NCBI GenBank assembly: GCA_043813915.1
Contig: JBDRKO010000024.1
Coordinates: 1-58,420 of the forward strand
Source: Candidatus Omnitrophota bacterium
GTDB taxonomy: Bacteria > Omnitrophota > Gorgyraeia > Tantalellales > Tantalellaceae
Direction of reading: 5' to 3'
Length of the DNA stretch: 58,420 nucleotides
Shown here: piece by piece, positions 5,303 to 58,268 of the stretch
How positions within the stretch are numbered: the stretch's first letter is position 1
Layout: every line of letters begins with the position of its first letter
Made by a program: the position numbers and the translations under genes
The notes under the pieces: model-generated
Told to the model about the DNA's origin: nothing
Databases searched by the model: none
The model's input: the letters and a program-made list of their open reading frames with translations, nothing else

Positions 5303-5373
5303 TTCACTCCCTTCGTCCGGTCTTCCTTGATCATCCTGCGCCTAAACATTTTCACTTCGCGTTAACCAGGGAT

Positions 5374-5390
5374 ACGGCATGCCGTGCCCC
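5374..5390. repeat. Half copy of the GC-rich palindrome family (ACGGCATGCCGTGCCCC)
   Basis: Shares the CGGCATGCCGTGCCCC core with 14883, 14960 and 32628. Lies 72 nt upstream of the CDF gene start. Confidence 0.7.
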
Positions 5391-10514: not shown

Positions 10515-10585
10515 CATAGAGCATAGCCTTAAACAGTAGCTTCTTTAAAGTAACCAGTTGCCTGTTACCAGTTACCAGTAACTCT
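10515..10585. repeat. Heptamer word arrays (CATAGAG CATAGCC ... TAACCAG TTGCCTG TTACCAG TTACCAG TAACTCT)
   Basis: 7-nt periodicity read directly. The segment AGTAGCTTCTTTAAAGTAACCAGTTGCCTGTT recurs at 29641 and, in diverged form, at 58217. Confidence 0.85.
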
Positions 10586-10670: not shown

Positions 10671-11759
10671 GGGCATAATGGTCATAAAGTGTTGGTGCTC
10701 TTTGATATAATAGCTTATAATTACGTTACTTACGATAAAAAAATCGTTATATCTCAAAGGGAGTTGAGAATGTCAAAAAAAAACGATGTCCAACATGTGC
10801 TTCAAAGAATGTAATTTTATATGGAAAAACTAGTTACAATAAGCAACGCTTTTTCTGTCATTTTTGCAATAAATCGTTTGTTTGGCAAAGTAAATTAAAT
10901 AAAATATCTAACGAAAAACACTGGTTTTATCTTTGGGTTAAAGAAGCTTTTTCCCTTAGACAATTAAGTTATATTTCCGGGCATAGCCCGGCTAAACTAA
11001 AACGTATAAAAAATTATTGGCTTAAAAAATCACCACCAGAATATTCGTCATATTCGCGGTGTAAACACATAATTATTGATGGTACCTATTTCCATAAAAC
11101 CGGCTGCATTATTTGTTTAATGGATGTTACATCACAGGATATTATTTCAACCATTTATGTCAACAAAGAGAACTACAAAAATGTATTTCCCTGGCTTAAA
11201 AGACTAAAAGCAAAAGGATTAAAGCCAACCCACATAGTTGTTGATGGAGAAAGATCAGTTATGCGCGCAATAAAAGACACATGGCCAAAGATAACCATAC
11301 AACGTTGCTTGTATCACATACAGCATGAGGGCATGCGCTGGTTACGTACATATCCAAGAACTGACGCAGGCAGAGAATTGCGCCACCTTTTAGGAACATT
11401 ATGCACAATTAGGACTGTCAAAGAACGGAATCAATTTATCGGTACTTTTAATCTCTGGCTAACAACACATAGAGAGTTCATGAAAACATTGCCATTATCG
11501 AATATCGCTTTATCTGATTACGGTAGACACCGAGGATTAACTGAATTAAATAAACGCCAATATCTTAACTGGTATTGCTTTTTAAATAACAAAAATATAA
11601 AAACTAAACATTGTGGATAGTGACACTTTGTGGACATCCTTTCAGGATGACCACAAAGCTTGGATAACTAAAAATCAGTTATCCACACTCCCCACAATAC
11701 TACGACTACTAGTTATCAATTTAGGGCATAAAAAACAACATTCTGTGACCTTTATGCCC
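10671..11759 (+). mobile_element. Insertion sequence (~1.09 kb) with imperfect ~24-bp terminal inverted repeats and 5-bp ATTGC target-site duplication
   Basis: IRL 10671 GGGCATAATGGTCATAAAGTGTTG versus the reverse complement of IRR (11759..11736) GGGCATAAAGGTCACAGAATGTTG, 20/24 identical. ATTGC lies directly outside both ends (10666-10670 and 11760-11764). The single transposase ORF is the only substantial plus-strand gene in the window. Confidence 0.8.
10770..11620 (+). CDS. Transposase with N-terminal zinc ribbon and a MULE/IS256-like DDE core; needs a -1 shift (or one extra A) in an A9 run
   Basis: SD AAGGGAG precedes ATG 10770. ATG TCA then A9 (10775-10783), and frame 0 stops after 13 codons. 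The -1 frame reads KRCPTCASKNVILYGK..FFCHFCNKSF..IIIDGTYF..IVVDGERSVMRAIKDTWP..QRCLYHIQHEGMRW without interruption to 11620. The ORF track shows only the part from the internal Met at 11120. Confidence 0.7.
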
Positions 11760-11785
11760 ATTGCGAGCGCAGCGAAGCAATCTCG

Positions 11786-11853
11786 TCCTTCATCCTTCGT
11801 CCCTCGTCTCTCATCCTTCGTTCATCCCTGACACTTTGACACTCTGACACTTT
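11786..11853. repeat. Heptamer/octamer word arrays (TCCTTCA TCCTTCG TCCCTCG TCTCTCA TCCTTCG ...; GACACTTT GACACTCT GACACTTT)
   Basis: Read directly. The TCCTTCG/TCCCTCG/TCTCTCA block recurs at 26326-26359. Confidence 0.85.
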
Positions 11854-14262: not shown

Positions 14263-14356
14263 AAATAAAGTAACCAGTTGCCTGTTACCAGTTACCAGAT
14301 GAAATAGCGCGCCATTTCTGGTTACCGGTTTCTGGTTACAGGTAACTATTTTATTT
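14263..14356. repeat. Inverted pair of heptamer arrays (TAACCAG/TTACCAG words versus CTGGTTA/CTGGTAA words)
   Basis: Left arm 14263-14298 AAATAAAGTAACCAGTTGCCTGTTACCAGTTACCAG. Right arm 14318-14356 CTGGTTACCGGTTTCTGGTTACAGGTAACTATTTTATTT. Complementary at word level. Confidence 0.85.
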
Positions 14357-14882: not shown

Positions 14883-14908
14883 GTAGGGGCACGGCATGCC
14901 GTGCCCTA
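14883..14908. repeat. GC-rich palindrome family copy (GTAGGGGCACGGCATGCCGTGCCCTA)
   Basis: Near-perfect palindrome centred on GCATGC, 32 nt upstream of the ykgJ-like start. Confidence 0.9.
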
Positions 14909-14959
14909 TAAAAACACCGGTTTCGATAGCGGGTATATGTTCGATAATGGATTTAAAAT

Positions 14960-14983
14960 GGGCACGGCATGCCGTGCCCCTAC
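14960..14983. repeat. GC-rich palindrome family copy (GGGCACGGCATGCCGTGCCCCTAC)
   Basis: Second copy, 77 bp from the first. Overlaps the stop codon of the flavodoxin-like gene. Confidence 0.9.
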
Positions 14984-15606: not shown

Positions 15607-15672
15607 CGCATAGCGCGCAGAGCATAGAGCACGCATTTTATTCGTATATCGTATAGCGTATGTCGTATAGCG
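15607..15672. repeat. Heptamer word arrays (CGCATAG CGCGCAG AGCATAG AGCACGC; CGTATAT CGTATAG CGTATGT CGTATAG)
   Basis: 7-nt periodicity read directly at 15607-15634 and 15643-15672. Confidence 0.85.
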
Positions 15673-15683
15673 CGAACAGAAAT

Positions 15684-15769
15684 AAAAATATATTCTGGGG
15701 ACATTCTTCGGCCAGGGCTTATACCCCCACGGGAAGAGTGTCCTCAGAACTTCCACCCTCAACTTTCAG
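15684..15769. repeat. Copy A of an ~85-nt element with conserved ends and a variable centre
   Basis: AAAAATATATTCTGGGGACAT...GTGTCCTCAGAACTTCCACCCTCAACTTT. Compare 29908-29990. The inner GGACAT/GTGTCC segments can pair. Confidence 0.8.
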
Positions 15770-15784
15770 ACTGCTTCTTTCCAT

Positions 15785-15855
15785 CACACATCACACATAA
15801 AACATTACACGACATTCCGCGTCTTTTTTCTGGTAACTGGTAACCGGTAACTTTG
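15785..15855. repeat. Word arrays (CACATCA CACATAA AACATTA CACGACA; TTCTGGT AACTGGT AACCGGT AACTTTG)
   Basis: CACATAAAACATTACACG recurs at 26291-26309. The CTGGTAA words are the complement of the TAACCAG family. Confidence 0.8.
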
Positions 15856-25012: not shown

Positions 25013-25082
25013 GACTTACACATGATACTTATATAGCGGATATATCGTCAAGCTAAATCGTACATTCAGTTGAACGGTTTAA

Positions 25083-25189
25083 GAGTTCTGAGTTCGATGT
25101 TCGTAGTTCGGTGTTGATAGTCGTAAATATCTATTTGCTAGGCCCTCACTACGAACTATGAACTATGAACTACTAACTACGAACTATCT
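25083..25189. repeat. Inverted pair of six-unit heptamer arrays with a 23-nt spacer (no ORF inside)
   Basis: 25083-25124 GAGTTCT GAGTTCG ATGTTCG TAGTTCG GTGTTGA TAGTCGT. 25148-25189 ACTACGA ACTATGA ACTATGA ACTACTA ACTACGA ACTATCT. Confidence 0.9.
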
Positions 25190-26090
25190 TTCCATTCACT
25201 AATGCCTTCACCCATCCTATAGCCATTTCGAGCAGAGACCTATGGCTCTTCTCATATGCGATCAAACCTTGATCATTGAGCGCACATATATCTTTCCATA
25301 GATCCTCCGACTGAAGAACGGCAAAAACTATCTTGGGTTCGAGTGAAGGGTCGACACCGGCGAACGTACGTTTTGCTTCCTTGGTATATCCGGTCTTTCC
25401 CCAAGGACCGTCCTCCCGTTTCAAGAGCGCCTTATTGTGGGTCTTCAGGAGTATACTCTTTTTATCGCTTCCTATTATTTCGTCCTGTTTCAACGACATG
25501 GTCTCCAAAAGGTCCTTACGGCCCGCCGCATACCGCATAAGCGTACACAGGTCTTTCGCCGTTATGTACTGCGTGTCTTTTTTTTCCGCGGGAAGTCCCG
25601 ACGCGTTGGCAAAATACGTATCGTTCATCCCGAGTTCTTTGGCTTTATCGTTCATCATTCTGGCAAAAAGTTCTTCACTGCCGGCGATATGATGCGCGAT
25701 GACCCTTGCCGCGTCATTACCTGACTTTATCATTAACGCGGAGATCAGGTCTTTTGCTTTATAACTGACTCCGCCGGCCAGACCCGCGACAGTAGGTTCT
25801 ACTTTTACGGCCTCCGGAGTAGACACAATATATTCATTAGGATCGATCTTCTCGAGGACTATCAGCGCTGTCATTATCTTAGCGGTCGAAGCCGGCGGGA
25901 ATTTGTCGTCGGGGTTTTTTTCATACAGCACTTTTCCATTCTTCATCTCGCGTATGACCGCGCATCTGCCGCTGATATCAAGCGTCAGAGGTTCTTCGGA
26001 ACATCCTGCCAGCATGCCTGCGACAACAAACAGAGAAACTACTATCCCATATATATTTTTGTGAACTATTTTCATGTTTTCCTTTACCAT
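25173..26090 (-). CDS. D-alanyl-D-alanine carboxypeptidase (S11 / PBP5-like)
   Basis: SxxK (ASTAKIM), SGN (IKSGND) and KTG (GKTGYT) boxes, plus a signal/lipoprotein leader. The last codons (IVRS*) read into a heptamer array. Confidence 0.85.
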   Translation of the reverse strand: MVKENMKIVHKNIYGIVVSLFVVAGMLAGCSEEPLTLDISGRCAVIREMKNGKVLYEKNPDDKFPPASTAKIMTALIVLEKIDPNEYIVSTPEAVKVEPTVAGLAGGVSYKAKDLISALMIKSGNDAARVIAHHIAGSEELFARMMNDKAKELGMNDTYFANASGLPAEKKDTQYITAKDLCTLMRYAAGRKDLLETMSLKQDEIIGSDKKSILLKTHNKALLKREDGPWGKTGYTKEAKRTFAGVDPSLEPKIVFAVLQSEDLWKDICALNDQGLIAYEKSHRSLLEMAIGWVKALVNGKIVRS

Positions 26091-26438
26091 TTAATACTTA
26101 CCACTTAACACTTAATACTTGTCTTGGTTCTTCCTTCTGTCCTCTGACTTCTGTCTTCTGACTTCTGACTTCCGTCCTCTGTCTTCTAGCTCTGGGGCCA
26201 CCTTTAAACACAAAAAAAGTGCCACATTCAAAGCTAAATTAGCAAACGGTACAAAAGTATGCGGAAGTGTTCTTCCTCCATTCCACGTAACACATAAAAC
26301 ATTACACGCCGCCGGTTATCTCCCGTCCTTCGTCCTTCATCCCTCGTCTCTCATTCATCTGCGTCAAAACGGGGACGTTTTGCCCACCTCGAACATTACG
26401 TTCTCGGCGCCTGTGCTCTGTGCCCTATGCTCTATGCC
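26091..26438. repeat. Mosaic of word arrays (TTAATAC/TTACCAC; CTTCTGA/CCTCTGA x8; CACATAAAACATTACACG; TCCTTCG/TCCCTCG; TGTGCTC TGTGCCC TATGCTC TATGCC)
   Basis: Arrays at 26091-26120, 26131-26187, 26291-26309, 26326-26359 and 26412-26438, plus the hairpin CAAAACGgggaCGTTTTG at 26365-26382. Confidence 0.85.
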
Positions 26439-28710: not shown

Positions 28711-29613
28711 CTAGGATAACATGCTTCCCTGCCGAACACCTCTCTTTTCCATTTCCCTTTCTATGTATCTGACGGCTTCCAGCTTATCTTCCATCCATCT
28801 CGGCGCGACGATCAGATCTCGCTTGGCATCGGATATCAATCTCATTATAACGCAATCGCTTCTCAGATGCTCGATAAAATCACATACATAACCCGCATAC
28901 TCATCCAGACTAAGCATCCTTACGGATCCGCTTTCGTACATCTTTTCCATCGGGGTATTTTTCAGTACATGAAGCATATGCAGTTTGACCCCGTCTACGG
29001 GAAGGCCGGAGATGCGTTCCGCGATCTTAATGATATCTTCCCGCGACTGCCCCATCCCTCCTATCATAATATGAACTCCGACTTTTATCCCCCTTTTTGC
29101 CGTTCTTTCAATAGCCTCTATGGTCTGACCGGACGTATGCCCCCTGTTCATTCTTCTCAGAATATCATCACTTAACGACTGCATCCCGTATTCGACCCAA
29201 ACGTCATAATCATCCATATATCCGGCTATAAGATCCAATTTTTCATCATCAACACAATCCGGCCGTGTAGAGATGGACAGGCCTATGATCTCGGGGAATC
29301 CCCGTATGACGTCATATGCTCTTTTAAGTTCCGAAGGTTCCGCATTGGTACTTGTCCCGTTCTGAAAATACGCTATAAATTTCCGCACATCTCTTCTCTT
29401 CTTCATCTCTTTTATGGATCCTGATATCTGAGCGTCCAAGGACAATGCTTGTCCGGCATAGTTACTGTATCCTTCCTCGTTGCAGAATATACATCCGCCC
29501 AAACCGTCCTCATCGATCCTGTTCGGGCATCCGAACCCCGCGTTAAGACCGATCTTCTTGACGTTCTCGCCGTAGGTTTCCTGCACGTATTGTTTGAAGG
29601 AATAGTATCGCAT
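28711..29613 (-). CDS. TIGR01212-family radical SAM protein (YhcC-like)
   Basis: GFGCPNRIDEDGLGGCIFCNEEG is the unusual Cys motif typical of TIGR01212. Followed by ISTRPDC and WVEYGMQS. Confidence 0.85.
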   Translation of the reverse strand: MRYYSFKQYVQETYGENVKKIGLNAGFGCPNRIDEDGLGGCIFCNEEGYSNYAGQALSLDAQISGSIKEMKKRRDVRKFIAYFQNGTSTNAEPSELKRAYDVIRGFPEIIGLSISTRPDCVDDEKLDLIAGYMDDYDVWVEYGMQSLSDDILRRMNRGHTSGQTIEAIERTAKRGIKVGVHIMIGGMGQSREDIIKIAERISGLPVDGVKLHMLHVLKNTPMEKMYESGSVRMLSLDEYAGYVCDFIEHLRSDCVIMRLISDAKRDLIVAPRWMEDKLEAVRYIEREMEKRGVRQGSMLS

Positions 29614-29618
29614 ATTTT

Positions 29619-30075
29619 CGTGACTCGTGACTCGTGAACAAGTAGCTTCTTTAAAGTAACCAGTTGCCTGTTTTCTGTAACCAGTAAACTACATCTTTCT
29701 TCTGGTAACTGGTAACCGGTTTCTGGTAACTTTATTTAACTGGGCCTTCGACCTTTTAATATTTTAAACTGCTAATAGCATAGAGCACAGGGCACAGAGC
29801 ATAGAGTTATACTGACTGATGCTTAAACGTAATTCGTAATTTGTGAGTCGTGATTTGTGCCGTACGAATAGCAACCAGTTGCCTGTTGCCTGTTCCCTGT
29901 AACCAGTAAAAATATATTCTGGGGACATCTTGAGGGGTAGGTTTACACTTCCCCGGGAAAGGTGTCCACAGAACTTCCACCCTTAACTTTTTAACCCCTC
30001 TTCCTTCGTCCCTCTGACACTTTGGCTCTTCTTTTATCCTCTACCCTCTGACGTCTGTCTTCTGACTTCTGACCC
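29619..30075. repeat. Large mosaic of at least eight different heptamer word arrays plus the 85-nt element
   Basis: CGTGACT x3 at 29619-29639. TAACCAG/CTGGTAA inverted pair at 29652-29736. CATAGAG CACAGGG CACAGAG CATAGAG at 29779-29806. GTAATTC GTAATTT GTGAGTC GTGATTT at 29829-29856. GCAACCA GTTGCCT GTTGCCT GTTCCCT GTAACCA at 29871-29905. CCTCTGA CGTCTGT CTTCTGA CTTCTGA at 30048-30075. Confidence 0.9.
29908..29990. repeat. Copy B of the ~85-nt element
   Basis: AAAAATATATTCTGGGGACAT...GTGTCCACAGAACTTCCACCCTTAACTTT. The ends are nearly identical to 15684-15769 and the centre differs. Confidence 0.8.
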
Positions 30076-32627: not shown

Positions 32628-32657
32628 AGTAGGGGCACGGCATGCCGTGCCCCTACT
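32628..32657. repeat. Perfect 30-bp palindrome AGTAGGGGCACGGCATGCCGTGCCCCTACT (best copy of the family)
   Basis: Self-complementary over all 30 nt. Lies between the metH stop (32670) and the start of the small Cys-rich ORF (32607). Confidence 0.95.
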
Positions 32658-36133: not shown

Positions 36134-36237
36134 GACCATTGACTGTTGACCATGGACTATTGACCATTATGCGAATCTATAAATACTGATCTATTTGTCG
36201 CTAAAGACAATAGTCAATAGTCAATTGTCCATAGTCC
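36134..36237. repeat. Inverted pair of heptamer arrays with a 38-nt spacer (no ORF inside)
   Basis: 36134-36168 GACCATT GACTGTT GACCATG GACTATT GACCATT. 36207-36237 ACAATAG TCAATAG TCAATTG TCCATAG TCC. Confidence 0.9.
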
Positions 36238-36348
36238 GATATCGTTTCTGATTTCTATTACCATTCACCATCTAGCTTCTAGCCTCTTTTTTTCGGGCGG
36301 TTCACGAACCGCCCCTACTTCTATCTTCTGTCTTCTTCTCACGACGCC

Positions 36349-42032: not shown

Positions 42033-43048
42033 ACTTCCCCCTCTTCCCTGACGGCCGTCTGTCCGACAAACCTTTCGGCCAGATCAAAACTATCTATCAT
42101 TTCCAGTTTTGTAGGTCCGTATTTAGCGAACTTTACCATGTCACAATGAGACAGGAACGCTTCCAATGAATGTTTATGCTCCGCCGCAAGGAGCGGGGAA
42201 TATTTCGCCACTTCAAGGAACTCTTCTGTGGTCATTTCTACGGCCCTGAAGGAGAACCGGTTCTCCAGATAACGCCTCAATATCCCGGAAAGACGCGTAT
42301 AGTATTCTTCCACAAGACCTTTCCCGGGAAGATCCATAGCTTTTAAAGCGTTGAGCTCATTATACGCTGTTATGTGCGCCGGTACGGGAGGCGCTTCCGG
42401 CTCGCTGCTATTGTTCCCGCTCCGATATCTGCGCATAAGCAGGAAAACGGTTAGAGCCGCGAGAAATATACAAAAGATCAATATTATCCTTTTGAACATA
42501 TCAACGAACGGTAAAAGCCCTTTTATATCACGTATCTCCGAGCTTTCTTCGGTAAGAAGGCTTTCGACCTCTATAGGCACTTGGGAACTGTCCCGGGTCT
42601 GCCATTCATCATTACCCGGAGATCTGTATTTGACCGTAACGGGAGGTATTACGTGAGTTCCCGTATCGTATACGCTGAGGATATACACATGTCCCGTTCG
42701 CCCTCCATCCTGTTTTGACCCGGATAAAGAACGGGACCCTCTTAGGACAAAATCCCCGAGATTTTCCGGGGTATCGGGGAACACCACTTCACGCCCCGAA
42801 ACATTCTCAGCTTCGATCTTCAACTCAATATTATCCCCTATATTCACGGTATCTCTATCCGTTGAAACGGTTATTTTCAGGGATCCTTCGGCTCTTACCG
42901 GAACACCCGCAACAAAGACGGAAAGATATAACGCGGCAAAAAAAACATAGAAACTTCCCCGTTTGGTCAGGTATTCATGTCCGTGTATAGGTGCTTTTTT
43001 CGGCATTTTCTTTTTCCCTGTTCGATCTTTTACCGCGCCGCGCGTCAC
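42029..43048 (-). CDS. Bat-operon membrane protein (DUF4381-like C-terminal half)
   Basis: Exported beta-sandwich N-terminal half and a TM (IILIFCIFLAALTVFLL). The following segment, AHITAYNELNALKAMD...YYTRLSGILRRYLENRF, is typical of DUF4381 proteins in MoxR/VWA operons. ATGA overlap with batA. Confidence 0.55.
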   Translation of the reverse strand: MTRGAVKDRTGKKKMPKKAPIHGHEYLTKRGSFYVFFAALYLSVFVAGVPVRAEGSLKITVSTDRDTVNIGDNIELKIEAENVSGREVVFPDTPENLGDFVLRGSRSLSGSKQDGGRTGHVYILSVYDTGTHVIPPVTVKYRSPGNDEWQTRDSSQVPIEVESLLTEESSEIRDIKGLLPFVDMFKRIILIFCIFLAALTVFLLMRRYRSGNNSSEPEAPPVPAHITAYNELNALKAMDLPGKGLVEEYYTRLSGILRRYLENRFSFRAVEMTTEEFLEVAKYSPLLAAEHKHSLEAFLSHCDMVKFAKYGPTKLEMIDSFDLAERFVGQTAVREEGEV

Positions 43049-43077
43049 ATTCTCCGATATGGATATGTTCCCGGGCT

Positions 43078-43962
43078 TTATCTTACCCGCATCCTTCTCT
43101 CCCTTGCGCGGAAAAACCGTACAAGAGGATCAACGTATGATCTGTTCGTTATGATATCCACACTGTCCACATTCACCGAGCGGAACATTTTTTTTCTCTC
43201 CTCGAATCTATCTGCGGCCTCTTTTCTGTAGTTTTCCCTCAGAACGTTATCCCCCGTATCCGCGTAGTATATCTCTCCCGTTTCCGCGTCCTCGAGCGTC
43301 ATGATGCCGGCTTCCGGAAGATCCTGTTCGGAAGGATCTATAATATTGACCGCGATAACATCATGTCTTTTATTGGTTATGGATAGTGTTTTTTTGAAAT
43401 CGGGCGCTAAGAAATCGGATACTAAAAATGTTATTGTCCTGCGTGTGGTCACGTTATTAAGATACTCCAATATGTTTTTTATGTCCGTCCCTTTTCCCTC
43501 TGGCTGGTTATATATGGCTTCCCGAACGACTCTCAGCACATGACGCAGTCCTTTTCTGGGCGGTATGAATTTCTCCACCCTGTCGGTGAAAGTTATCATA
43601 CCCACGTTATCGTTGTTCTGTATAGCGGAAAAAGCTATAACGGAACAGATCTCGGCGGCTATGTCCCTTTTAAGATGCGCGCCCGTTCCGAACAGGCAGG
43701 ACATTGATACGTCAAGCAGTATCATTATGGTAAGTTCTCTTTCTTCCGAGAATTTTTTGATGTACGGATGCCCCATCCGGGCGGTAACGTTCCAGTCTAT
43801 GGAACGTATCTCATCTCCCGGCATGTATTCACGTACTTCGTCGAACTCCATACCCACGCCTTTAAAAACGCTCTGATACTGTCCGGCGAAAATATCGGTC
43901 ACTTTGCGCGAAGTCGTGATCTGTATACGCCTTATTTTTTTGATTATATCTTTCGATATCAT
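43078..43962 (-). CDS. DUF58 domain protein (MoxR-operon partner)
   Basis: GQYQSVFKGVGMEFDEVREYMPGDEIRSIDWNVTAR is the canonical DUF58 motif. Confidence 0.85.
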   Translation of the reverse strand: MISKDIIKKIRRIQITTSRKVTDIFAGQYQSVFKGVGMEFDEVREYMPGDEIRSIDWNVTARMGHPYIKKFSEERELTIMILLDVSMSCLFGTGAHLKRDIAAEICSVIAFSAIQNNDNVGMITFTDRVEKFIPPRKGLRHVLRVVREAIYNQPEGKGTDIKNILEYLNNVTTRRTITFLVSDFLAPDFKKTLSITNKRHDVIAVNIIDPSEQDLPEAGIMTLEDAETGEIYYADTGDNVLRENYRKEAADRFEERKKMFRSVNVDSVDIITNRSYVDPLVRFFRARERRMRVR

Positions 43963-44351
43963 TTATTCGTGCCCCGTGACTCGGGACTGGTGTCCCGAGA
44001 AAGACTGTTAACAAGACTCATAAGCATACGCATCTCATGATTTAGATCTTCTATCAGTTCTTCTATTTTTTTATTTTTAACGTATTTCCTCTTATCACTA
44101 ATGATAAGTTGTGTCTCTAGCTCTGCGCACGACCCAAGAGAGAGACGCAAAAACTGTGTATATTCTTTCGTGTAATGCCTGACGAATCCCTCTGCAATGT
44201 TTGACGGAACAGAAACCGCTGCTCTTCGCATCTGACTGGTCAGACCATATAATTCACTTTTCGGAAAATCATCCGTGATGGTATATATCTTATCGGCGAT
44301 TTCAATTCCCTTCTGCCATATTTTTAAATCTTTGTAATCTTTTACCTTCAT
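43959..44351 (-). CDS. four-helix-bundle protein (23S rRNA intervening-sequence protein family)
   Basis: YKDLKIWQKGIEIADKIY..FPKSELYGLTSQMRRAAVSVPSNIAEGF..FLRLSLGSCAELETQL is the family signature. Start placed at ATG 44351 with GGAG upstream. The TGA overlaps the DUF58 ATG. The N-terminal extension in the ORF track, and the last ~13 codons of the ORF as listed here, read through heptamer arrays. Confidence 0.8.
   Translation of the reverse strand: MKVKDYKDLKIWQKGIEIADKIYTITDDFPKSELYGLTSQMRRAAVSVPSNIAEGFVRHYTKEYTQFLRLSLGSCAELETQLIISDKRKYVKNKKIEELIEDLNHEMRMLMSLVNSLSRDTSPESRGTNK
43966..44000. repeat. Heptamer array forming the 3' arm of the four-helix-bundle cassette
   Basis: TTCGTGC CCCGTGA CTCGGGA CTGGTGT CCCGAGA. 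Its reverse complement contains GTCCCGAGTCACG, which matches the other arm. Confidence 0.85.
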
Positions 44352-44367
44352 TTTTCTCCTCGCTAAC

Positions 44368-44402
44368 AAGTCACGAGTCACGAGTCACGCGTCCCGAGCC
44401 AC
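44368..44402. repeat. Heptamer array forming the 5' arm of the four-helix-bundle cassette
   Basis: AAGTCAC GAGTCAC GAGTCAC GCGTCCC GAGCCAC, starting 3 nt after the moxR stop codon. Confidence 0.85.
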
Positions 44403-44404
44403 GA

Positions 44405-45418
44405 TCAAGGAACTTCTATTTCCTCGAATATCCTTTTTATGATATCTTCGGATGTCTTGTCTTCTGCTTCGGCCTCATAGCTGGGAATAACTCTGTGTCT
44501 CAGTACATCCGGACCGATGGATTTCACATCCTGCGGAGTAACATATCCGCGCCCTTTTATGAACGCGTAAGCTTTTGCGGCGAGCACAAGGTTGATGCTC
44601 GCTCTCGGAGAAGCGCCGTATTCTATAAGGCCCTCCAGCTCGGACAAACCGTACTCCCCCGGTTTTCTGGTAGCAAAGACTATATCGAGTATGTATCTTT
44701 CTATTTTCTCGTCCAGGTATATTTCGTCGATCACTTTGCGCGCCTCGATTATCCTGTCGGGAGATATCACGGCCTTAATATCAAATTTTTTGTTCGTGAA
44801 AGCCATTTTCTTAAGTATCTCGTGTTCCTCTTCCTTGCTGGGATACCCTATGTTTATTTTGAGCATGAACCTGTCCACCTGAGCTTCAGGCAAAGGGTAG
44901 GTCCCTTCCTGCTCTATGGGATTCTGCGTCGCGAGCACCAAAAAAGGTTCTTCCATCATAAATGTCTTTTCCCCGATGGTCACCTGTCTTTCCTGCATTG
45001 CCTCAAGTAACGCGCTTTGGACCTTAGCCGGAGCCCTGTTTATCTCATCCGCGAGTATGATATTGGAAAATATAGGACCTTTTTTTGTGGTAAAAGTGCC
45101 GTCTTTGGGACTGTATACAAGGGTTCCTATCAGGTCAGCCGGCAAAAGGTCGGGTGTGAACTGAATACGCTGAAACCCTGTACTGATGGAGGCGGAAAGT
45201 ACTCTTACCGAGAGGGTCTTCGCGAGCCCGGGAACTCCCTCAATAAGAACATGGCCGTTGGCCAGAAGCCCGACCAAAAGACGTTCTATGAGGTACTCCT
45301 GTCCCACTATGAACTTTCTTATCTCGGATAATAGATCATCGATAAAAGCGCTTTCTTTTTTCACTTTCTCGTTTATTCCGGTTATACCTTCTGACATAGC
45401 GTTCCCCCTTTTTTTCAC
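44405..45418 (-). CDS. moxR: MoxR-family AAA+ ATPase
   Basis: Walker A region HVLIEGVPGLAKT, Walker B ILADEINRA, and the VLATQNPIEQEGTYPLPEAQVDRF motif typical of MoxR (AAA_3). Confidence 0.92.
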   Translation of the reverse strand: MKKRGNAMSEGITGINEKVKKESAFIDDLLSEIRKFIVGQEYLIERLLVGLLANGHVLIEGVPGLAKTLSVRVLSASISTGFQRIQFTPDLLPADLIGTLVYSPKDGTFTTKKGPIFSNIILADEINRAPAKVQSALLEAMQERQVTIGEKTFMMEEPFLVLATQNPIEQEGTYPLPEAQVDRFMLKINIGYPSKEEEHEILKKMAFTNKKFDIKAVISPDRIIEARKVIDEIYLDEKIERYILDIVFATRKPGEYGLSELEGLIEYGASPRASINLVLAAKAYAFIKGRGYVTPQDVKSIGPDVLRHRVIPSYEAEAEDKTSEDIIKRIFEEIEVP

Positions 45419-45469
45419 TAAAAAATATTACCTGCCCATTAAGAAAGACAAGCATATGATTTTAATTAT

Positions 45470-45499
45470 AATATACAACAGTTCCTATTGTTTGGTCAA
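45470..45499 (-). promoter_or_regulatory. Candidate sigma70-type promoter of the moxR/Bat operon
   Basis: The minus strand reads TTGACC (45499-45494), an 18-nt spacer, then TATATT (45475-45470). ~50 nt upstream of the moxR ATG. Confidence 0.4.
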
Positions 45500-45558
45500 G
45501 ATGGATAATGAACGCGCAGACAAGATCGGGAACGGGGACTTAACCGATCAGCGTTTTT

Positions 45559-51792: not shown

Positions 51793-51929
51793 GTGAACAA
51801 CGAATGGTGAATGGTGAACGATAACCTGTTACCTGTGCCCTTGGGACACCTTTGCAGAATTTATGCTATTAAACTATTCAACTTTTTTACTACCCACTAC
51901 GAACTCCCAACTACGAACTACTAACTATT
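51793..51929. repeat. Two unrelated heptamer arrays flanking a 46-nt spacer
   Basis: 51793-51841 GTGAACA ACGAATG GTGAATG GTGAACG ATAACCT GTTACCT GTGCCCT. 51888-51929 TACTACC CACTACG AACTCCC AACTACG AACTACT AACTATT, the same word family as 25148 and 55711. Confidence 0.85.
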
Positions 51930-55640: not shown

Positions 55641-55745
55641 TAGTTAGTAGTTCATAGTTCGTAGTTCGTAGTTTATCAAACTTGGGCTGACACCATCTTT
55701 TTGCATTTCCCAACTATGAACTACGAACTACCCACTACGAACTCA
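55641..55745. repeat. Inverted pair of five-unit heptamer arrays with a 35-nt spacer (no ORF inside)
   Basis: 55641-55675 TAGTTAG TAGTTCA TAGTTCG TAGTTCG TAGTTTA. 55711-55745 CAACTAT GAACTAC GAACTAC CCACTAC GAACTCA. Confidence 0.9.
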
Positions 55746-58137: not shown

Positions 58138-58268
58138 CATAGATCGCATAGCGCATAGGGCACAGGGCATAGAGTTGTATTGACTGATGCTCCAGCAGTA
58201 ACCCCCTTACAGCGAACAGTAATTTCTTCAAAGTAACCAGTTGCCTGTTACTTGTAACCAGTGACTTG
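58138..58268. repeat. Word arrays (CATAGAT CGCATAG CGCATAG GGCACAG GGCATAG; TAACCAG TTGCCTG TTACTTG TAACCAG TGACTTG) sharing modules with 29779-29830 and 10535-10585
   Basis: The block GGCATAGAGTTGTATTGACTGATGCT parallels GCATAGAGTTATACTGACTGATGCT at 29800-29823. Confidence 0.85.

What the first reader, a model, noticed from the sequence alone, without database searches (positions are those of the whole stretch)
43959..44405. 23S-IVS-family four-helix-bundle ORF in a hairpin cassette placed exactly between moxR and the DUF58 gene of the Bat operon
The ~440 bp between the moxR stop (44405) and the DUF58 start (43962) holds a four-helix-bundle protein gene. This family is named for ORFs found inside 23S rRNA intervening sequences.

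The gene is bracketed by two arrays of 7-nt words:
- 44368-44402: AAGTCAC GAGTCAC GAGTCAC GCGTCCC GAGCCAC
- 43966-44000: TTCGTGC CCCGTGA CTCGGGA CTGGTGT CCCGAGA

The arms are reverse complements at word level; GTCCCGAGYCACG appears on both. The transcript could therefore fold into a long stem with the ORF in the loop. rRNA intervening sequences excised by RNase III have the same layout.

The ORF has its own GGAG Shine-Dalgarno, and its TGA overlaps the DUF58 ATG (ATGA). It is therefore embedded inside a conserved operon rather than sitting beside it. Several other gaps in this window hold the same kind of inverted heptamer arrays without an ORF. That points to a mobile or processed cassette family whose biology I do not know to be described.
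Basis: partly seen in the sequence, partly recalled or inferred. Interest (0 to 1): 0.72.

Follow-up and report, generated by a model that had tools for sequence, protein, structure and literature searches.

The report
IVS-type gene cassette inside an operon
A small gene of the kind first found inside ribosomal RNA "intervening sequences", bracketed by two mirror-image runs of 7-base repeats, has been inserted between two genes of a conserved operon, and the same gene-plus-repeats package recurs across many bacterial phyla with no known function.

Summary
A 130-aa PF05635/TIGR02436 four-helix-bundle gene (44351..43959, minus strand) fills the moxR–DUF58 spacer. It is bracketed by two inverted arrays of five degenerate heptamers (44404–44370 and 44000–43966) that pair at about −42 kcal/mol.

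It is an insertion. None of 80 related moxR–DUF58 junctions carries it. One sister lineage (88% aa identity) does, with core dN/dS of 0.06 and an exact 7-nt indel in one arm.

The layout is family-wide. In 81 homologous copies from Planctomycetota, Omnitrophota, Atribacterota and others, 60% have strongly complementary flanks, against 1.1% of background positions. The periodicity is specifically 7. Arm sequence co-diverges with the ORF. 65 of 75 copies are co-oriented inside operons.

The same layout occurs in a true 23S rRNA intervening sequence (IVS) in Azospirillum, between accB and accC in Xanthomonas (the GGGAATC repeats), between cas6 and cas4 in cyanobacteria, and in Riemerella.

Best reading: this is a non-ribosomal copy of the S23p/IVS element, co-transcribed with the operon and closed by an RNA stem. 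RNase III processing, protein–arm binding and the mobility mechanism are inferred, not shown. I found no paper that describes the general cassette.

The parts
44405..45418 (-). moxR (AAA_3 MoxR ATPase), the upstream cistron. Its TGA is at 44407-44405.
   Evidence: Pfam AAA_3 at E 4e-64 and AAA_lid_2. ORF list.
44370..44404 (-). 5' arm: five degenerate heptamers, TCGTGGC TCGGGAC GCGTGAC TCGTGAC TCGTGAC. It starts on the base after the moxR stop codon.
   Evidence: Sequence. TRF period 7, 5.1 copies. Inverted repeats I13/I15. Paired in the MFE and centroid structures.
44356..44359 (-). GGAG Shine-Dalgarno of the cassette ORF, 4 nt upstream of the ATG. It lies just inside the stem.
   Evidence: Sequence. 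The sister copy L174 has GGGAGG at the same place.
43959..44351 (-). Cassette ORF, 130 aa: a PF05635/TIGR02436 four-helix-bundle (S23p / '23S rRNA IVS') protein. Residues 118-130 are encoded by the 3' arm and are predicted to be disordered.
   Evidence: Pfam E 1.5e-38. NCBIfam NF008911 at 147 bits and TIGR02436. AF2 pLDDT 87.5 with four helices, and tail residues 122-130 below 50. Foldseek hits 2gsc and 2rld. dN/dS 0.06 against the sister copy.
43966..44000 (-). 3' arm: five degenerate heptamers, TCTCGGG ACACCAG TCCCGAG TCACGGG GCACGAA. It is the reverse complement of the 5' arm at word level, and it ends 3 nt before the DUF58 ATG.
   Evidence: Sequence. Inverted repeat. Duplex -42.1 kcal/mol against -25.4 for shuffled partners.
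43078..43962 (-). DUF58 gene, the downstream cistron. Its ATG at 43962-43960 overlaps the cassette TGA (ATGA).
   Evidence: Pfam DUF58 at E 1.8e-78. Sequence.

Best explanation
The locus is a non-ribosomal copy of the S23p-type 'intervening sequence' element. It is a cassette of about 446 bp with no promoter of its own. It consists of a PF05635 four-helix-bundle gene enclosed by two inverted arrays of about five degenerate heptamers. It was inserted into the short moxR-DUF58 spacer in the common ancestor of this lineage and one sister lineage.

Shown:
- The ORF and both arms are there.
- The cassette is an insertion.
- The protein is under strong purifying selection.
- Gene plus inverted period-7 arms is the normal form of this family in many phyla and in a real 23S rRNA IVS.
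- Arm sequence co-diverges with the ORF while the two arms stay complementary.
- Copies sit co-directionally between cistrons.

Inferred:
- The cassette is co-transcribed with the operon.
- In the transcript the arms pair into an interrupted helix of about 30 bp. This closes the insert off as a stem-loop and brings the moxR 3' end next to the DUF58 start.
- As in rRNA IVSs, this helix is a double-strand RNase (RNase III) processing site that makes the insertion tolerable.
- The protein belongs to the same fold family as the RNA-binding DGR scaffold Avd. I infer that it acts on its own heptamer arms.

How the cassette reaches new sites is unknown.
For: Anatomy and stem.

Insertion:
- 0 of 80 related DUF58 loci have a PF05635 gene at the junction, and 47 of 75 measurable gaps are under 60 nt.
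- The closest empty site, L084, has a 23-nt spacer.
- The sister copy L174 is at the same site. Core dN/dS is 0.06 and dS is 0.9. One arm has an exact 7-nt indel. The duplex is kept at -44 kcal/mol.

Family-wide architecture:
- Own arm pairs average -40.7 kcal/mol, non-own pairs -28.8.
- 60% of 81 copies share at least five 7-mers between the upstream flank and the reverse complement of the downstream flank, against 1.1% of 120,450 background positions in the same loci.
- Period 7 scores 8.7/11.2; periods 5, 6, 8 and 9 score about 3. Arrays are typically 3-5 units.
- Arm similarity tracks ORF identity between copies in different contexts (Spearman 0.42; Mantel 0 of 300).
- 65 of 75 copies are co-oriented with both neighbours, with gaps of about 50 nt.

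Same layout elsewhere:
- Azospirillum 23S rRNA.
- Xanthomonas accB|accC, with GGGAATC arrays.
- Nostoc, Geminocystis, Stanieria, Riemerella and Gemmatirosa.

Other points:
- The Coxiella IVS has tandem heptamers before the S23p ORF, and RNase III cuts at the first repeat (PMC4990558).
- The simple scans found no promoter between moxR and the ORF and no terminator on the minus strand.
- The sense strand folds slightly better than the antisense strand (-40.1 against -38.2 kcal/mol; 49 against 33 copies; p = 0.011).
- Fold: 2gsc, 2rld, then Avd in the DGR RNP.
Against: - No transcript data exist for this organism, so processing is extrapolated from rRNA IVSs.
- Mismatches within the arms show no RNA-type bias (G.U 49, A.C 51), and the sense-strand advantage is small. 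The arms could equally be kept complementary at the DNA level.
- About a quarter of the copies lack a recognisable 5' arm within 70 nt, so the stem is not indispensable.
- In this copy the 3' arm lies inside the ORF, so translating ribosomes would melt the stem.
- Cleavage between cistrons could harm rather than help expression of DUF58.
- Nothing shows that the protein binds nucleic acid. The Coxiella study argued that its ORF is not even translated.
Confidence: 0.6

Rival explanations
1. A DNA-level mobile element. The heptamer arrays act as terminal inverted repeats, or as a cruciform or hairpin in single-stranded DNA. These would be used for transposition, recombination or gene conversion, possibly with the four-helix-bundle protein as the specificity factor. 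RNA pairing would be a by-product. This can coexist with the best explanation.
For: - Presence/absence at the junction.
- Close homologues sit at unrelated sites: moxR|DUF58, V-ATPase C|F, upstream of hypC, upstream of V-ATPase D.
- Arms travel and co-diverge with the ORF.
- G.U roughly equals A.C in arm mismatches.
- Arm-like arrays of the same unit occur elsewhere in the same loci (38 sites against 2 in the control).
- The idea of a mobile element whose ORF serves mobility is old (cited in PMC4990558).
Against: - The 117-aa helical bundle has no recognisable nuclease or recombinase domain.
- No target-site duplication is visible against the empty site L084.
- Arm sequence is not conserved across the family, unlike transposase-recognised ends.
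- The strong co-orientation with host operons points to selection at the transcript level.
- REP-associated transposases in related genomes are flanked by their own REPs, not by heptamers.
Confidence: 0.25
2. Coincidence of two independent things. Heptamer or oligomer hairpins are generic intercistronic elements of these genomes, and the ORF merely landed in, or is tolerated only in, the loop of a pre-existing hairpin. On this view the arms are not part of the cassette.
For: - ORF-less inverted arrays occupy the same moxR-DUF58 spacer in several relatives (L096, L105, L112, L113, L163 and others).
- They also occupy other gaps of the window.
- Their units differ from locus to locus.
Against: - Arm units follow ORF relatedness across different insertion sites.
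- The cassette arms are specifically period 7. ORF-less hairpins in relatives are period 7 in 9 of 28 long gaps and period 5, 6, 8 or 9 in 7 of 28.
- The Azospirillum rRNA copy carries heptamer arrays at a site (helix 45) that has none natively.
- Enrichment is about 55-fold over background in the same loci.
Confidence: 0.1
3. A host-adaptive regulatory device of the Bat/MoxR operon. The stem-loop and small ORF would tune the moxR:DUF58 ratio by attenuation or translational coupling, and the protein would be a dedicated partner of the MoxR-VWA system.
For: - The ATGA overlap implies translational coupling to DUF58.
- The protein is under purifying selection.
Against: - The cassette is absent from 80 of 80 other MoxR-DUF58 operons.
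- The same cassette sits in unrelated operons and in rRNA, so it has no specific link to MoxR biology.
Confidence: 0.05

Closest known systems
S23p-encoding intervening sequences (IVS) of 23S rRNA (Leptospira, Coxiella burnetii, Brucella, Haemophilus; here also Azospirillum lipoferum AZO_p2)
   Same: - Same ORF family (PF05635).
- Same size class: the Coxiella IVS is 428 nt and this cassette is about 446 nt.
- The ORF is in sense orientation.
- Flanking inverted repeats form a stem with the ORF in the loop.
- Tandem heptamers lie next to the ORF: GACAGAT x3 in Coxiella (PMC4990558), and CAGAGGA/CGGATGA arrays on both sides in Azospirillum.
   Different: - The host transcript is a protein-coding operon, not rRNA. 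Rfam finds nothing here.
- The ORF has a good SD and is under strong purifying selection. The Coxiella ORF was judged untranslated and decaying.
- The 3' arm overlaps the ORF's C-terminus and abuts the next start codon.
- RNase III excision is shown for rRNA copies only.
Intergenic heptamer repeats: GGGAATC in Xanthomonas and GGGGAYT in Nostoc (Rehm et al. 2015, PMC4692102), TAACTGA in Beggiatoaceae, cyanobacteria and Bacteroidetes (MacGregor 2015, PMC4679880), cyanobacterial STRR (from my own knowledge)
   Same: - Short tandem arrays of 7-nt units in intergenic and intercistronic DNA.
- In Xanthomonas, 70-75 arrays occur as convergent inverted pairs.
- The XCC0516-like gene between accB and accC is flanked by exactly those GGGAATC arrays.
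   Different: Those papers treat the repeats as stand-alone elements (G-quadruplex formation, translational regulation). In the text I searched they do not connect them with PF05635 genes. TAACTGA sets are mostly direct repeats, not inverted.
Avd, the accessory protein of diversity-generating retroelements (PDB 4DWL, 8UB7)
   Same: Homologous four-helix-bundle fold (Foldseek TM about 0.7-0.8; weak Pfam bAvd and NCBIfam Avd hits). Avd is a pentameric scaffold that binds RNA and a reverse transcriptase.
   Different: - The Avd model scores 23.7 bits against a cut-off of 80.
- No reverse transcriptase is among the neighbouring genes.
- No template/variable repeat pair is known here; this was not searched for.
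- Sequence identity is about 13%.
REP/REPIN elements and their RAYT transposases
   Same: Small hairpin-forming repeats that populate intercistronic spacers of operons. A RAYT gene lies next to one cassette (L038).
   Different: RAYT homologues in four further genomes are flanked by their own conserved REP (GTAGTGTGCCCGTAAGGGCA...), not by heptamer arrays. No RAYT is present in the window.

Membership tests
PF05635 / TIGR02436 four-helix-bundle (S23p, '23S rRNA IVS protein') family | Profile match above the curated cut-off | tested here: met
   Pfam 131.7 bits (cut-off 33.8). TIGR02436 124 bits (cut-off 24) and NF008911 147 bits (cut-off 137).
PF05635 / TIGR02436 four-helix-bundle (S23p, '23S rRNA IVS protein') family | Up-down four-helix bundle like Xcc0516 (2GSC) and BT_0352 (2RLD) | tested here: met
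   AF2 pLDDT 87.5 with helices 3-26, 31-57, 62-87 and 93-120. Foldseek 2gsc TM 0.79-0.91 and 2rld TM 0.72-0.89.
PF05635 / TIGR02436 four-helix-bundle (S23p, '23S rRNA IVS protein') family | Conserved polar motif R..x3..S..x3..N..x2..E(G) | tested here: met
   Q40, S47, N51, E54, G55, S74 and E77 are invariant in 30 diverse members. R42 and R58 are nearly invariant. The motif was reported in PMC3936711.
PF05635 / TIGR02436 four-helix-bundle (S23p, '23S rRNA IVS protein') family | Homopentameric ring | not testable with these tools
   Only a monomer could be modelled. The five chains of 2gsc in the PDB and PMC4990558 indicate a pentamer for the homologue.
23S rRNA intervening sequence (IVS) element | Located inside a 23S rRNA gene (helix 25 or 45) | tested here: not met
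   It lies between two protein-coding genes. There is no Rfam match in 43000-45500. The Azospirillum homologue does lie in LSU rRNA.
23S rRNA intervening sequence (IVS) element | Flanking inverted repeats that form a long stem with the ORF in the loop | tested here: met
23S rRNA intervening sequence (IVS) element | Excision from the transcript by RNase III | not testable with these tools
   No transcript data. Shown for Coxiella (PMC4990558).
Diversity-generating retroelement (Avd) | Avd equivalog score; adjacent reverse transcriptase and template/variable repeats | tested here: not met
   NF033474 scores 23.7 bits against a cut-off of 80. The neighbours are MoxR, DUF58, BatA/B/D-like, a deaminase and radical SAM proteins. 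TR/VR repeats were not searched for.
REPIN/RAYT system | Cognate RAYT gene flanked by the same repeats | tested here: not met
   No RAYT in the window. RAYT homologues elsewhere are flanked by a different, conserved REP.
DNA transposon / MITE with terminal inverted repeats | Target-site duplication and a conserved terminal sequence recognised by a transposase | tested here: inconclusive
   No duplication is visible against the empty site L084, but that relative is only about 80-87% identical. Arm sequence is not conserved across the family. The cassette encodes no transposase.
Tandem heptamer repeats (STRR-like simple sequence repeats) | Head-to-tail copies of a 7-nt unit in non-coding DNA, changing by whole units | tested here: met
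   TRF period 7, 5.1 copies. Exact 7-nt indel between orthologous arms. Period-7 specificity.

The most novel reading that the evidence does not exclude
PF05635 genes and inverted heptamer arrays together form one pan-bacterial cassette system. In this reading the pentameric four-helix-bundle protein recognises its own arrays of about five heptamers. The cassette spreads into intercistronic spacers, cas operons and rRNA helix 45. The ORF-less heptamer arrays long known as unexplained repeats (cyanobacterial STRR, Xanthomonas GGGAATC pairs) are its non-autonomous or decayed derivatives.
Probability: 0.25. Interest if true: 0.85.

Novelty: new variant of a known kind. Interest (0 to 1): 0.7.

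Why it matters
Three unexplained observations may be facets of one element:
- the conserved ORF inside 23S rRNA intervening sequences (known since 1993);
- the tandem heptamer repeats of cyanobacteria and Xanthomonas;
- the puzzling "association" of PF05635 genes with CRISPR-cas loci.

PF05635 is a very large family with no known function; each of two searches here returned thousands of significant hits.

If gene plus inverted period-7 arms is its normal form, three consequences follow.
1. Many annotated "associations" of this gene (cas6|cas4, cmr3|cmr2, accB|accC, V-ATPase, Bat operon) are better read as insertions than as functional partnerships.
2. rRNA IVSs become a special case of a general intercistronic element.
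3. The question becomes testable in tractable organisms such as Xanthomonas campestris (XCC0516, structure solved) and Nostoc PCC 7120.

If instead the cassette is only a tolerated selfish insert, it still shows how an operon can carry a foreign cistron without polarity.

Tried and rejected
1. **RAYT lead.** A REP-associated tyrosine transposase in L038 (NF047646, E 3e-25; PDB 4er8) is bracketed by heptamer arrays of the same unit as the neighbouring cassette. This suggested that the arrays are REPIN-like. Four further homologues, and L038 itself, are flanked by their own conserved REP (GTAGTGTGCCCGTAAGGGCA / ACGCCTTACGGCGTCACTAC). L031's RAYT-like gene is flanked by another REP type. Rejected.
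2. **Decayed copies in the window.** A profile search of the six-frame translation found none. The solo GTCACGA x3 array at 29618-29637 has no ORF remnant next to it.
3. **Heptamer copy-number polymorphism within the species.** Five public assemblies are identical over the cassette.
4. **RNA or DNA level.** Mismatch types in the arms are symmetric (G.U 49, A.C 51). The sense/antisense energy difference is small. Inconclusive.
5. **Own promoter, terminator or known RNA family.** None by simple scans or Rfam.
6. **Defence-system models (PADLOC).** No hit.
7. **Wider flank windows (300/200 nt) for arm detection.** Discarded, because chance alone gives about 3.5 shared 7-mers.
8. **Organism name.** Cluster look-up gave none. 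The phylum was not determined.
10. **Ralph & McClelland 1993.** Could not be read.
Full report
**Observation**

- moxR ends with TGA at 44407-44405.
- On the next base (44404) begins an array of five degenerate heptamers, TCGTGGC TCGGGAC GCGTGAC TCGTGAC TCGTGAC, read on the transcript (minus) strand. TRF reports period 7, 5.1 copies.
- A GGAG lies at 44359-44356.
- An ATG at 44351 opens a 130-codon ORF whose TGA (43961-43959) overlaps the DUF58 ATG (43962-43960).
- The last 13 codons of the ORF are a second array, TCTCGGG ACACCAG TCCCGAG TCACGGG GCACGAA (44000-43966). It is the word-level reverse complement of the first.

The two arrays are the best long-range inverted repeat of the region (26 nt, 81%). 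Both the MFE and the centroid structure of the 466-nt transcript pair them. The arm duplex is -42.1 kcal/mol, against -25.4 +/- 4.1 for shuffled partners.

The window holds about 18 other period-7 arrays of quite different units. Several form short-loop hairpins in intergenic gaps: 36141-36236, 55642-55743 and 25079-25176. This is the only pair with a gene in the loop. It is also the only PF05635 gene in the window.

**The protein**

The protein matches PF05635 (E 1.5e-38), TIGR02436 and NF008911, all above their curated cut-offs. AlphaFold gives a confident four-helix bundle (pLDDT 87.5). The array-encoded tail, residues 122-130, is disordered.

The closest solved structures are Xcc0516 (2GSC, 40% identity) and BT_0352 (2RLD). 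The DGR accessory protein Avd follows, both alone and in the reverse-transcriptase RNP. The Avd equivalog model is far below its cut-off. No reverse transcriptase is among the neighbouring genes.

The family's polar motif is intact: Q40, R42, S47, N51, E54, G55, S74 and E77.

**It is an insertion**

Five public assemblies, including MAG GCA_018817765.1, carry the identical locus.

Among 80 metagenomic loci encoding DUF58 homologues (54-83% identity), none has a PF05635 gene next to DUF58. 75 of them have moxR directly upstream, with spacers of -3 to about 420 nt, and 47 of those spacers are under 60 nt. The closest empty site, L084, has a 23-nt spacer. Its SD-to-ATG segment (ACGGAGACTCAATAAATGAT) resembles the end of the window's 3' arm (ACGGGGCACGAATAAATGAT).

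One sister lineage (P0002/L174, 88% aa identity) has the cassette at the same junction.
- Between the two copies the core has dN/dS = 0.06 at dS = 0.9. The array-encoded tail has 0.47.
- The 5' arm differs by many substitutions and by an exact 7-nt deletion.
- Even so, the arm duplex is maintained at -44.4 kcal/mol.

The protein is therefore functional, and arm complementarity has been kept through substantial divergence.

**The layout is the rule for the family**

The protein search returned thousands of homologues. Many have C-terminal tails (…TSDERRATSD, …SRDTDPESRGTE) or N-terminal extensions that are translations of heptamer arrays.

I examined 86 copies in 78 genome loci. These came from Pirellulales, Phycisphaerae, Sedimentisphaerales, Omnitrophota, Atribacterota, Aerophobetes and others, at 42-75% identity. 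Nearly every ORF is preceded by an array and followed by its reverse complement, and the unit changes from copy to copy. Examples are TCGTGAC/GTCACGA, TCGTCGC/GCGACGA, CGTATAT/ATATACG, GTCGCCA/TGGCGAC, CTAGTCG/CGACTAG and GGGGTTA/TAACCCC.

Quantitatively:
- Own arm pairs average -40.7 kcal/mol and non-own pairs -28.8.
- 60% of 81 copies share at least five 7-mers between the upstream flank and the reverse complement of the downstream flank. Only 1.1% of 120,450 background positions of the same geometry in the same loci do so.
- The periodicity is specifically 7: scores are 8.7/11.2, against about 3 for periods 5, 6, 8 and 9. Arrays are typically 3-5 units long.
- Arm similarity rises with ORF identity even between copies in different genomic contexts (Spearman 0.42; Mantel 0 of 300). 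The arms therefore belong to the evolving unit and are not local scenery.
- 65 of 75 copies with two neighbours are co-oriented with both, at gaps of about 50 nt. Examples are V-ATPase C|F, the position upstream of hypC, and the position upstream of V-ATPase D.

**Reach beyond this clade**

A tblastn search of plasmids found mostly cyanobacterial copies. Ten were inspected.
- Nostoc edaphicum: GGGAGTA x8 upstream and TCCCTAC x5 downstream.
- Geminocystis, Stanieria, Nostoc punctiforme and Anabaena 90 show the inverted layout.
- Riemerella (Bacteroidota) shows it too.
- In Gemmatirosa the arrays on the two sides appear to run in the same orientation rather than inverted; this was not resolved.
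- In Nostoc PCC 7120 only the downstream array is evident.
- Pseudanabaena has direct arrays rather than inverted ones.
- Two copies sit between cas6 and cas4.

The Azospirillum lipoferum copy lies inside an LSU rRNA gene (Rfam 514 bits, model positions 868-1664), at the helix-45 site. Its arms are CAGAGGA CGGATGA CAGAGGA CGGAGGA and TCCGTCC TCTGTCT TCTGTCA TCCGTCT. A genuine rRNA IVS therefore has the same heptamer-array arms.

In Xanthomonas campestris, a close relative of the crystallised Xcc0516 lies between accB and accC. It is preceded by GGGAATC GGGAGTG GAGAATC GGGAATC and followed by the complementary array, which ends at the accC ATG.

**Literature**
- The Coxiella IVS paper records three tandem GACAGAT heptamers before the S23p ORF. 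Copy number varies between strains, RNase III cleaves at the first repeat, and the IVS RNA decays rapidly. It also recalls the older ideas that IVSs are transposition remnants or mobile elements (PMC4990558).
- Rehm et al. described 186 GGGAATC arrays in Xanthomonas, 70-75 of them as convergent pairs, and GGGGAYT arrays in Nostoc. They did not mention S23p genes (PMC4692102).
- MacGregor described TAACTGA repeats, likewise without that link (PMC4679880).
- Zhang and Ye found 18 PF05635 genes inside cas loci, and a later CRISPR survey lists the domain as CRISPR-linked. Both treat it as an association (PMC3936711 and PMC10910872).
- Eight full-text searches found no paper that describes gene plus inverted heptamer arrays as a general cassette. 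The library is open-access only, so this absence is not proof.

**How it most likely works**

Shown: a cassette made of a small ORF with no promoter of its own and two complementary period-7 arms. It is inserted co-directionally between cistrons, the protein is under purifying selection, and the arms stay complementary while their sequence drifts and changes by whole units.

Inferred: the cassette is co-transcribed with the operon. The simple scans found no promoter between moxR and the ORF and no terminator on the minus strand. The arms then pair in the RNA into an interrupted helix of about 30 bp. As in rRNA IVSs, that helix would be an RNase III site, or at least an insulating stem that keeps the flanks functional. 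The Avd-like protein would act on the arms.

Evidence on the level at which complementarity is selected is weak. The sense strand folds slightly better than the antisense (p = 0.011), but arm mismatches show no G.U excess (49 against 51). A DNA-level role, as terminal repeats or as homology for gene conversion, therefore remains a live rival and could coexist with the RNA role.

The view that the ORF merely landed in a pre-existing hairpin is disfavoured by three results: arm and ORF co-diverge, the rRNA copy carries arrays, and the cassette arms are specifically period 7. ORF-less hairpins in relatives' spacers also use periods 8-9.

A function specific to MoxR is unlikely, given the many unrelated host operons.

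**Dead ends**

A REP-associated transposase next to one cassette looked like a candidate mobiliser, but it is flanked by its own REPs in five genomes. I also found no decayed copies in the window, no polymorphism among the five assemblies, no Rfam hit and no PADLOC hit.

**Verdict**

The locus is a new variant of a known kind: an S23p/IVS-type element living in an mRNA operon. The analysis suggests a generalisation that I could not find described, namely that PF05635 genes are normally packaged between inverted heptamer arrays. Function, processing and mobility remain to be shown.

Noticed in passing
window 10547-10566, 14267-14286, 29653-29672, 29868-29887, 58230-58249 (all minus strand): A dispersed repeat, ...ACTGGTAACAGGCAACTGGTTACTTTAAAGAAGCTACTGTT..., occurs five times where none is expected by chance. 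At least two copies (10547-10566 and 29653-29672) lie within about 60 nt upstream of a minus-strand gene start, and all are embedded among GGTAACC-type heptamers. It could be a shared 5'-UTR or promoter-proximal element, or a small mobile repeat.
   Followed up: partly
window 14886-14907, 14959-14980, 32632-32653, 5369-5390: GC-rich perfect palindromes, (GTA)GGGGCACGGCATGCCGTGCCCC(TAC), recur in intergenic gaps. They look like REP-type elements and are distinct from the heptamer arrays.
   Followed up: partly
window 10549-10579, 11782-11853, 14269-14343, 15642-15852, 25091-25187, 26084-26438, 29618-30073, 36134-36336, 51802-51927, 55641-55743, 58145-58172: Intergenic gaps are packed with tandem heptamer arrays of many different units (AGTTACC, TCCTTCA, TCGTATA, ACTACGA, CTTCTGA, TGCTCTA, CAATAGT and others). 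Several form short-loop hairpins. Nearly all genes of the window are on the minus strand.
   Followed up: partly
window 29618-29637: A solo array of three perfect GTCACGA units, the same unit as the cassette arms. It ends 4 nt before the start codon of the radical-SAM gene 28711..29613, like the 3' arm of a cassette, but has no ORF and no partner arm. No PF05635 remnant was detected nearby.
   Followed up: yes
window 11120-11620 (+): A truncated Mutator-family transposase fragment (Pfam Transposase_mut, E 2e-7). It is the only ORF of at least 90 aa on the plus strand that was scanned and gave a Pfam hit. It lies in a 1.4-kb gap bordered by heptamer arrays.
   Followed up: partly
L002-L005 (window about 45240-45245): Four independent assemblies of the same population all break at the same point inside moxR, about 840 nt upstream of the cassette. 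This may indicate strain variation or a repeat just upstream.
   Followed up: no
L166 (Pseudanabaena pPg_01) and L173 (Anabaena sp. 90 pANA02): PF05635 genes sit between cas6 and cas4, flanked by long heptamer arrays. In Pseudanabaena the AAAGCTA/AAAGCCA arrays of more than 10 units are direct on both sides, not inverted. This suggests the reported CRISPR 'association' of this domain may reflect cassette insertion.
   Followed up: partly
L185 1430-1875 (Xanthomonas campestris): A close relative of the crystallised Xcc0516 (2GSC) protein lies between accB and accC. It is flanked by the GGGAATC heptamer arrays described as G-quadruplex repeats by Rehm et al. 2015.
   Followed up: yes
L038 7014-8330; L188-L191: A clade of REP-associated tyrosine transposases has conserved flanking REPs (GTAGTGTGCCCGTAAGGGCATA and ACGCCTTACGGCGTCACTAC) in Sedimentisphaerales-like MAGs and Desulfosudis oleivorans. 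In L038 and L188 the element sits next to the V-ATPase D gene, which also hosts a cassette.
   Followed up: yes
L086, L087, L092, L154 (moxR-DUF58 spacers of relatives): ORF-less inverted arrays in the same spacer have periods of 8-9 nt rather than 7. Tandem-array hairpins in these lineages are therefore not restricted to heptamers.
   Followed up: partly
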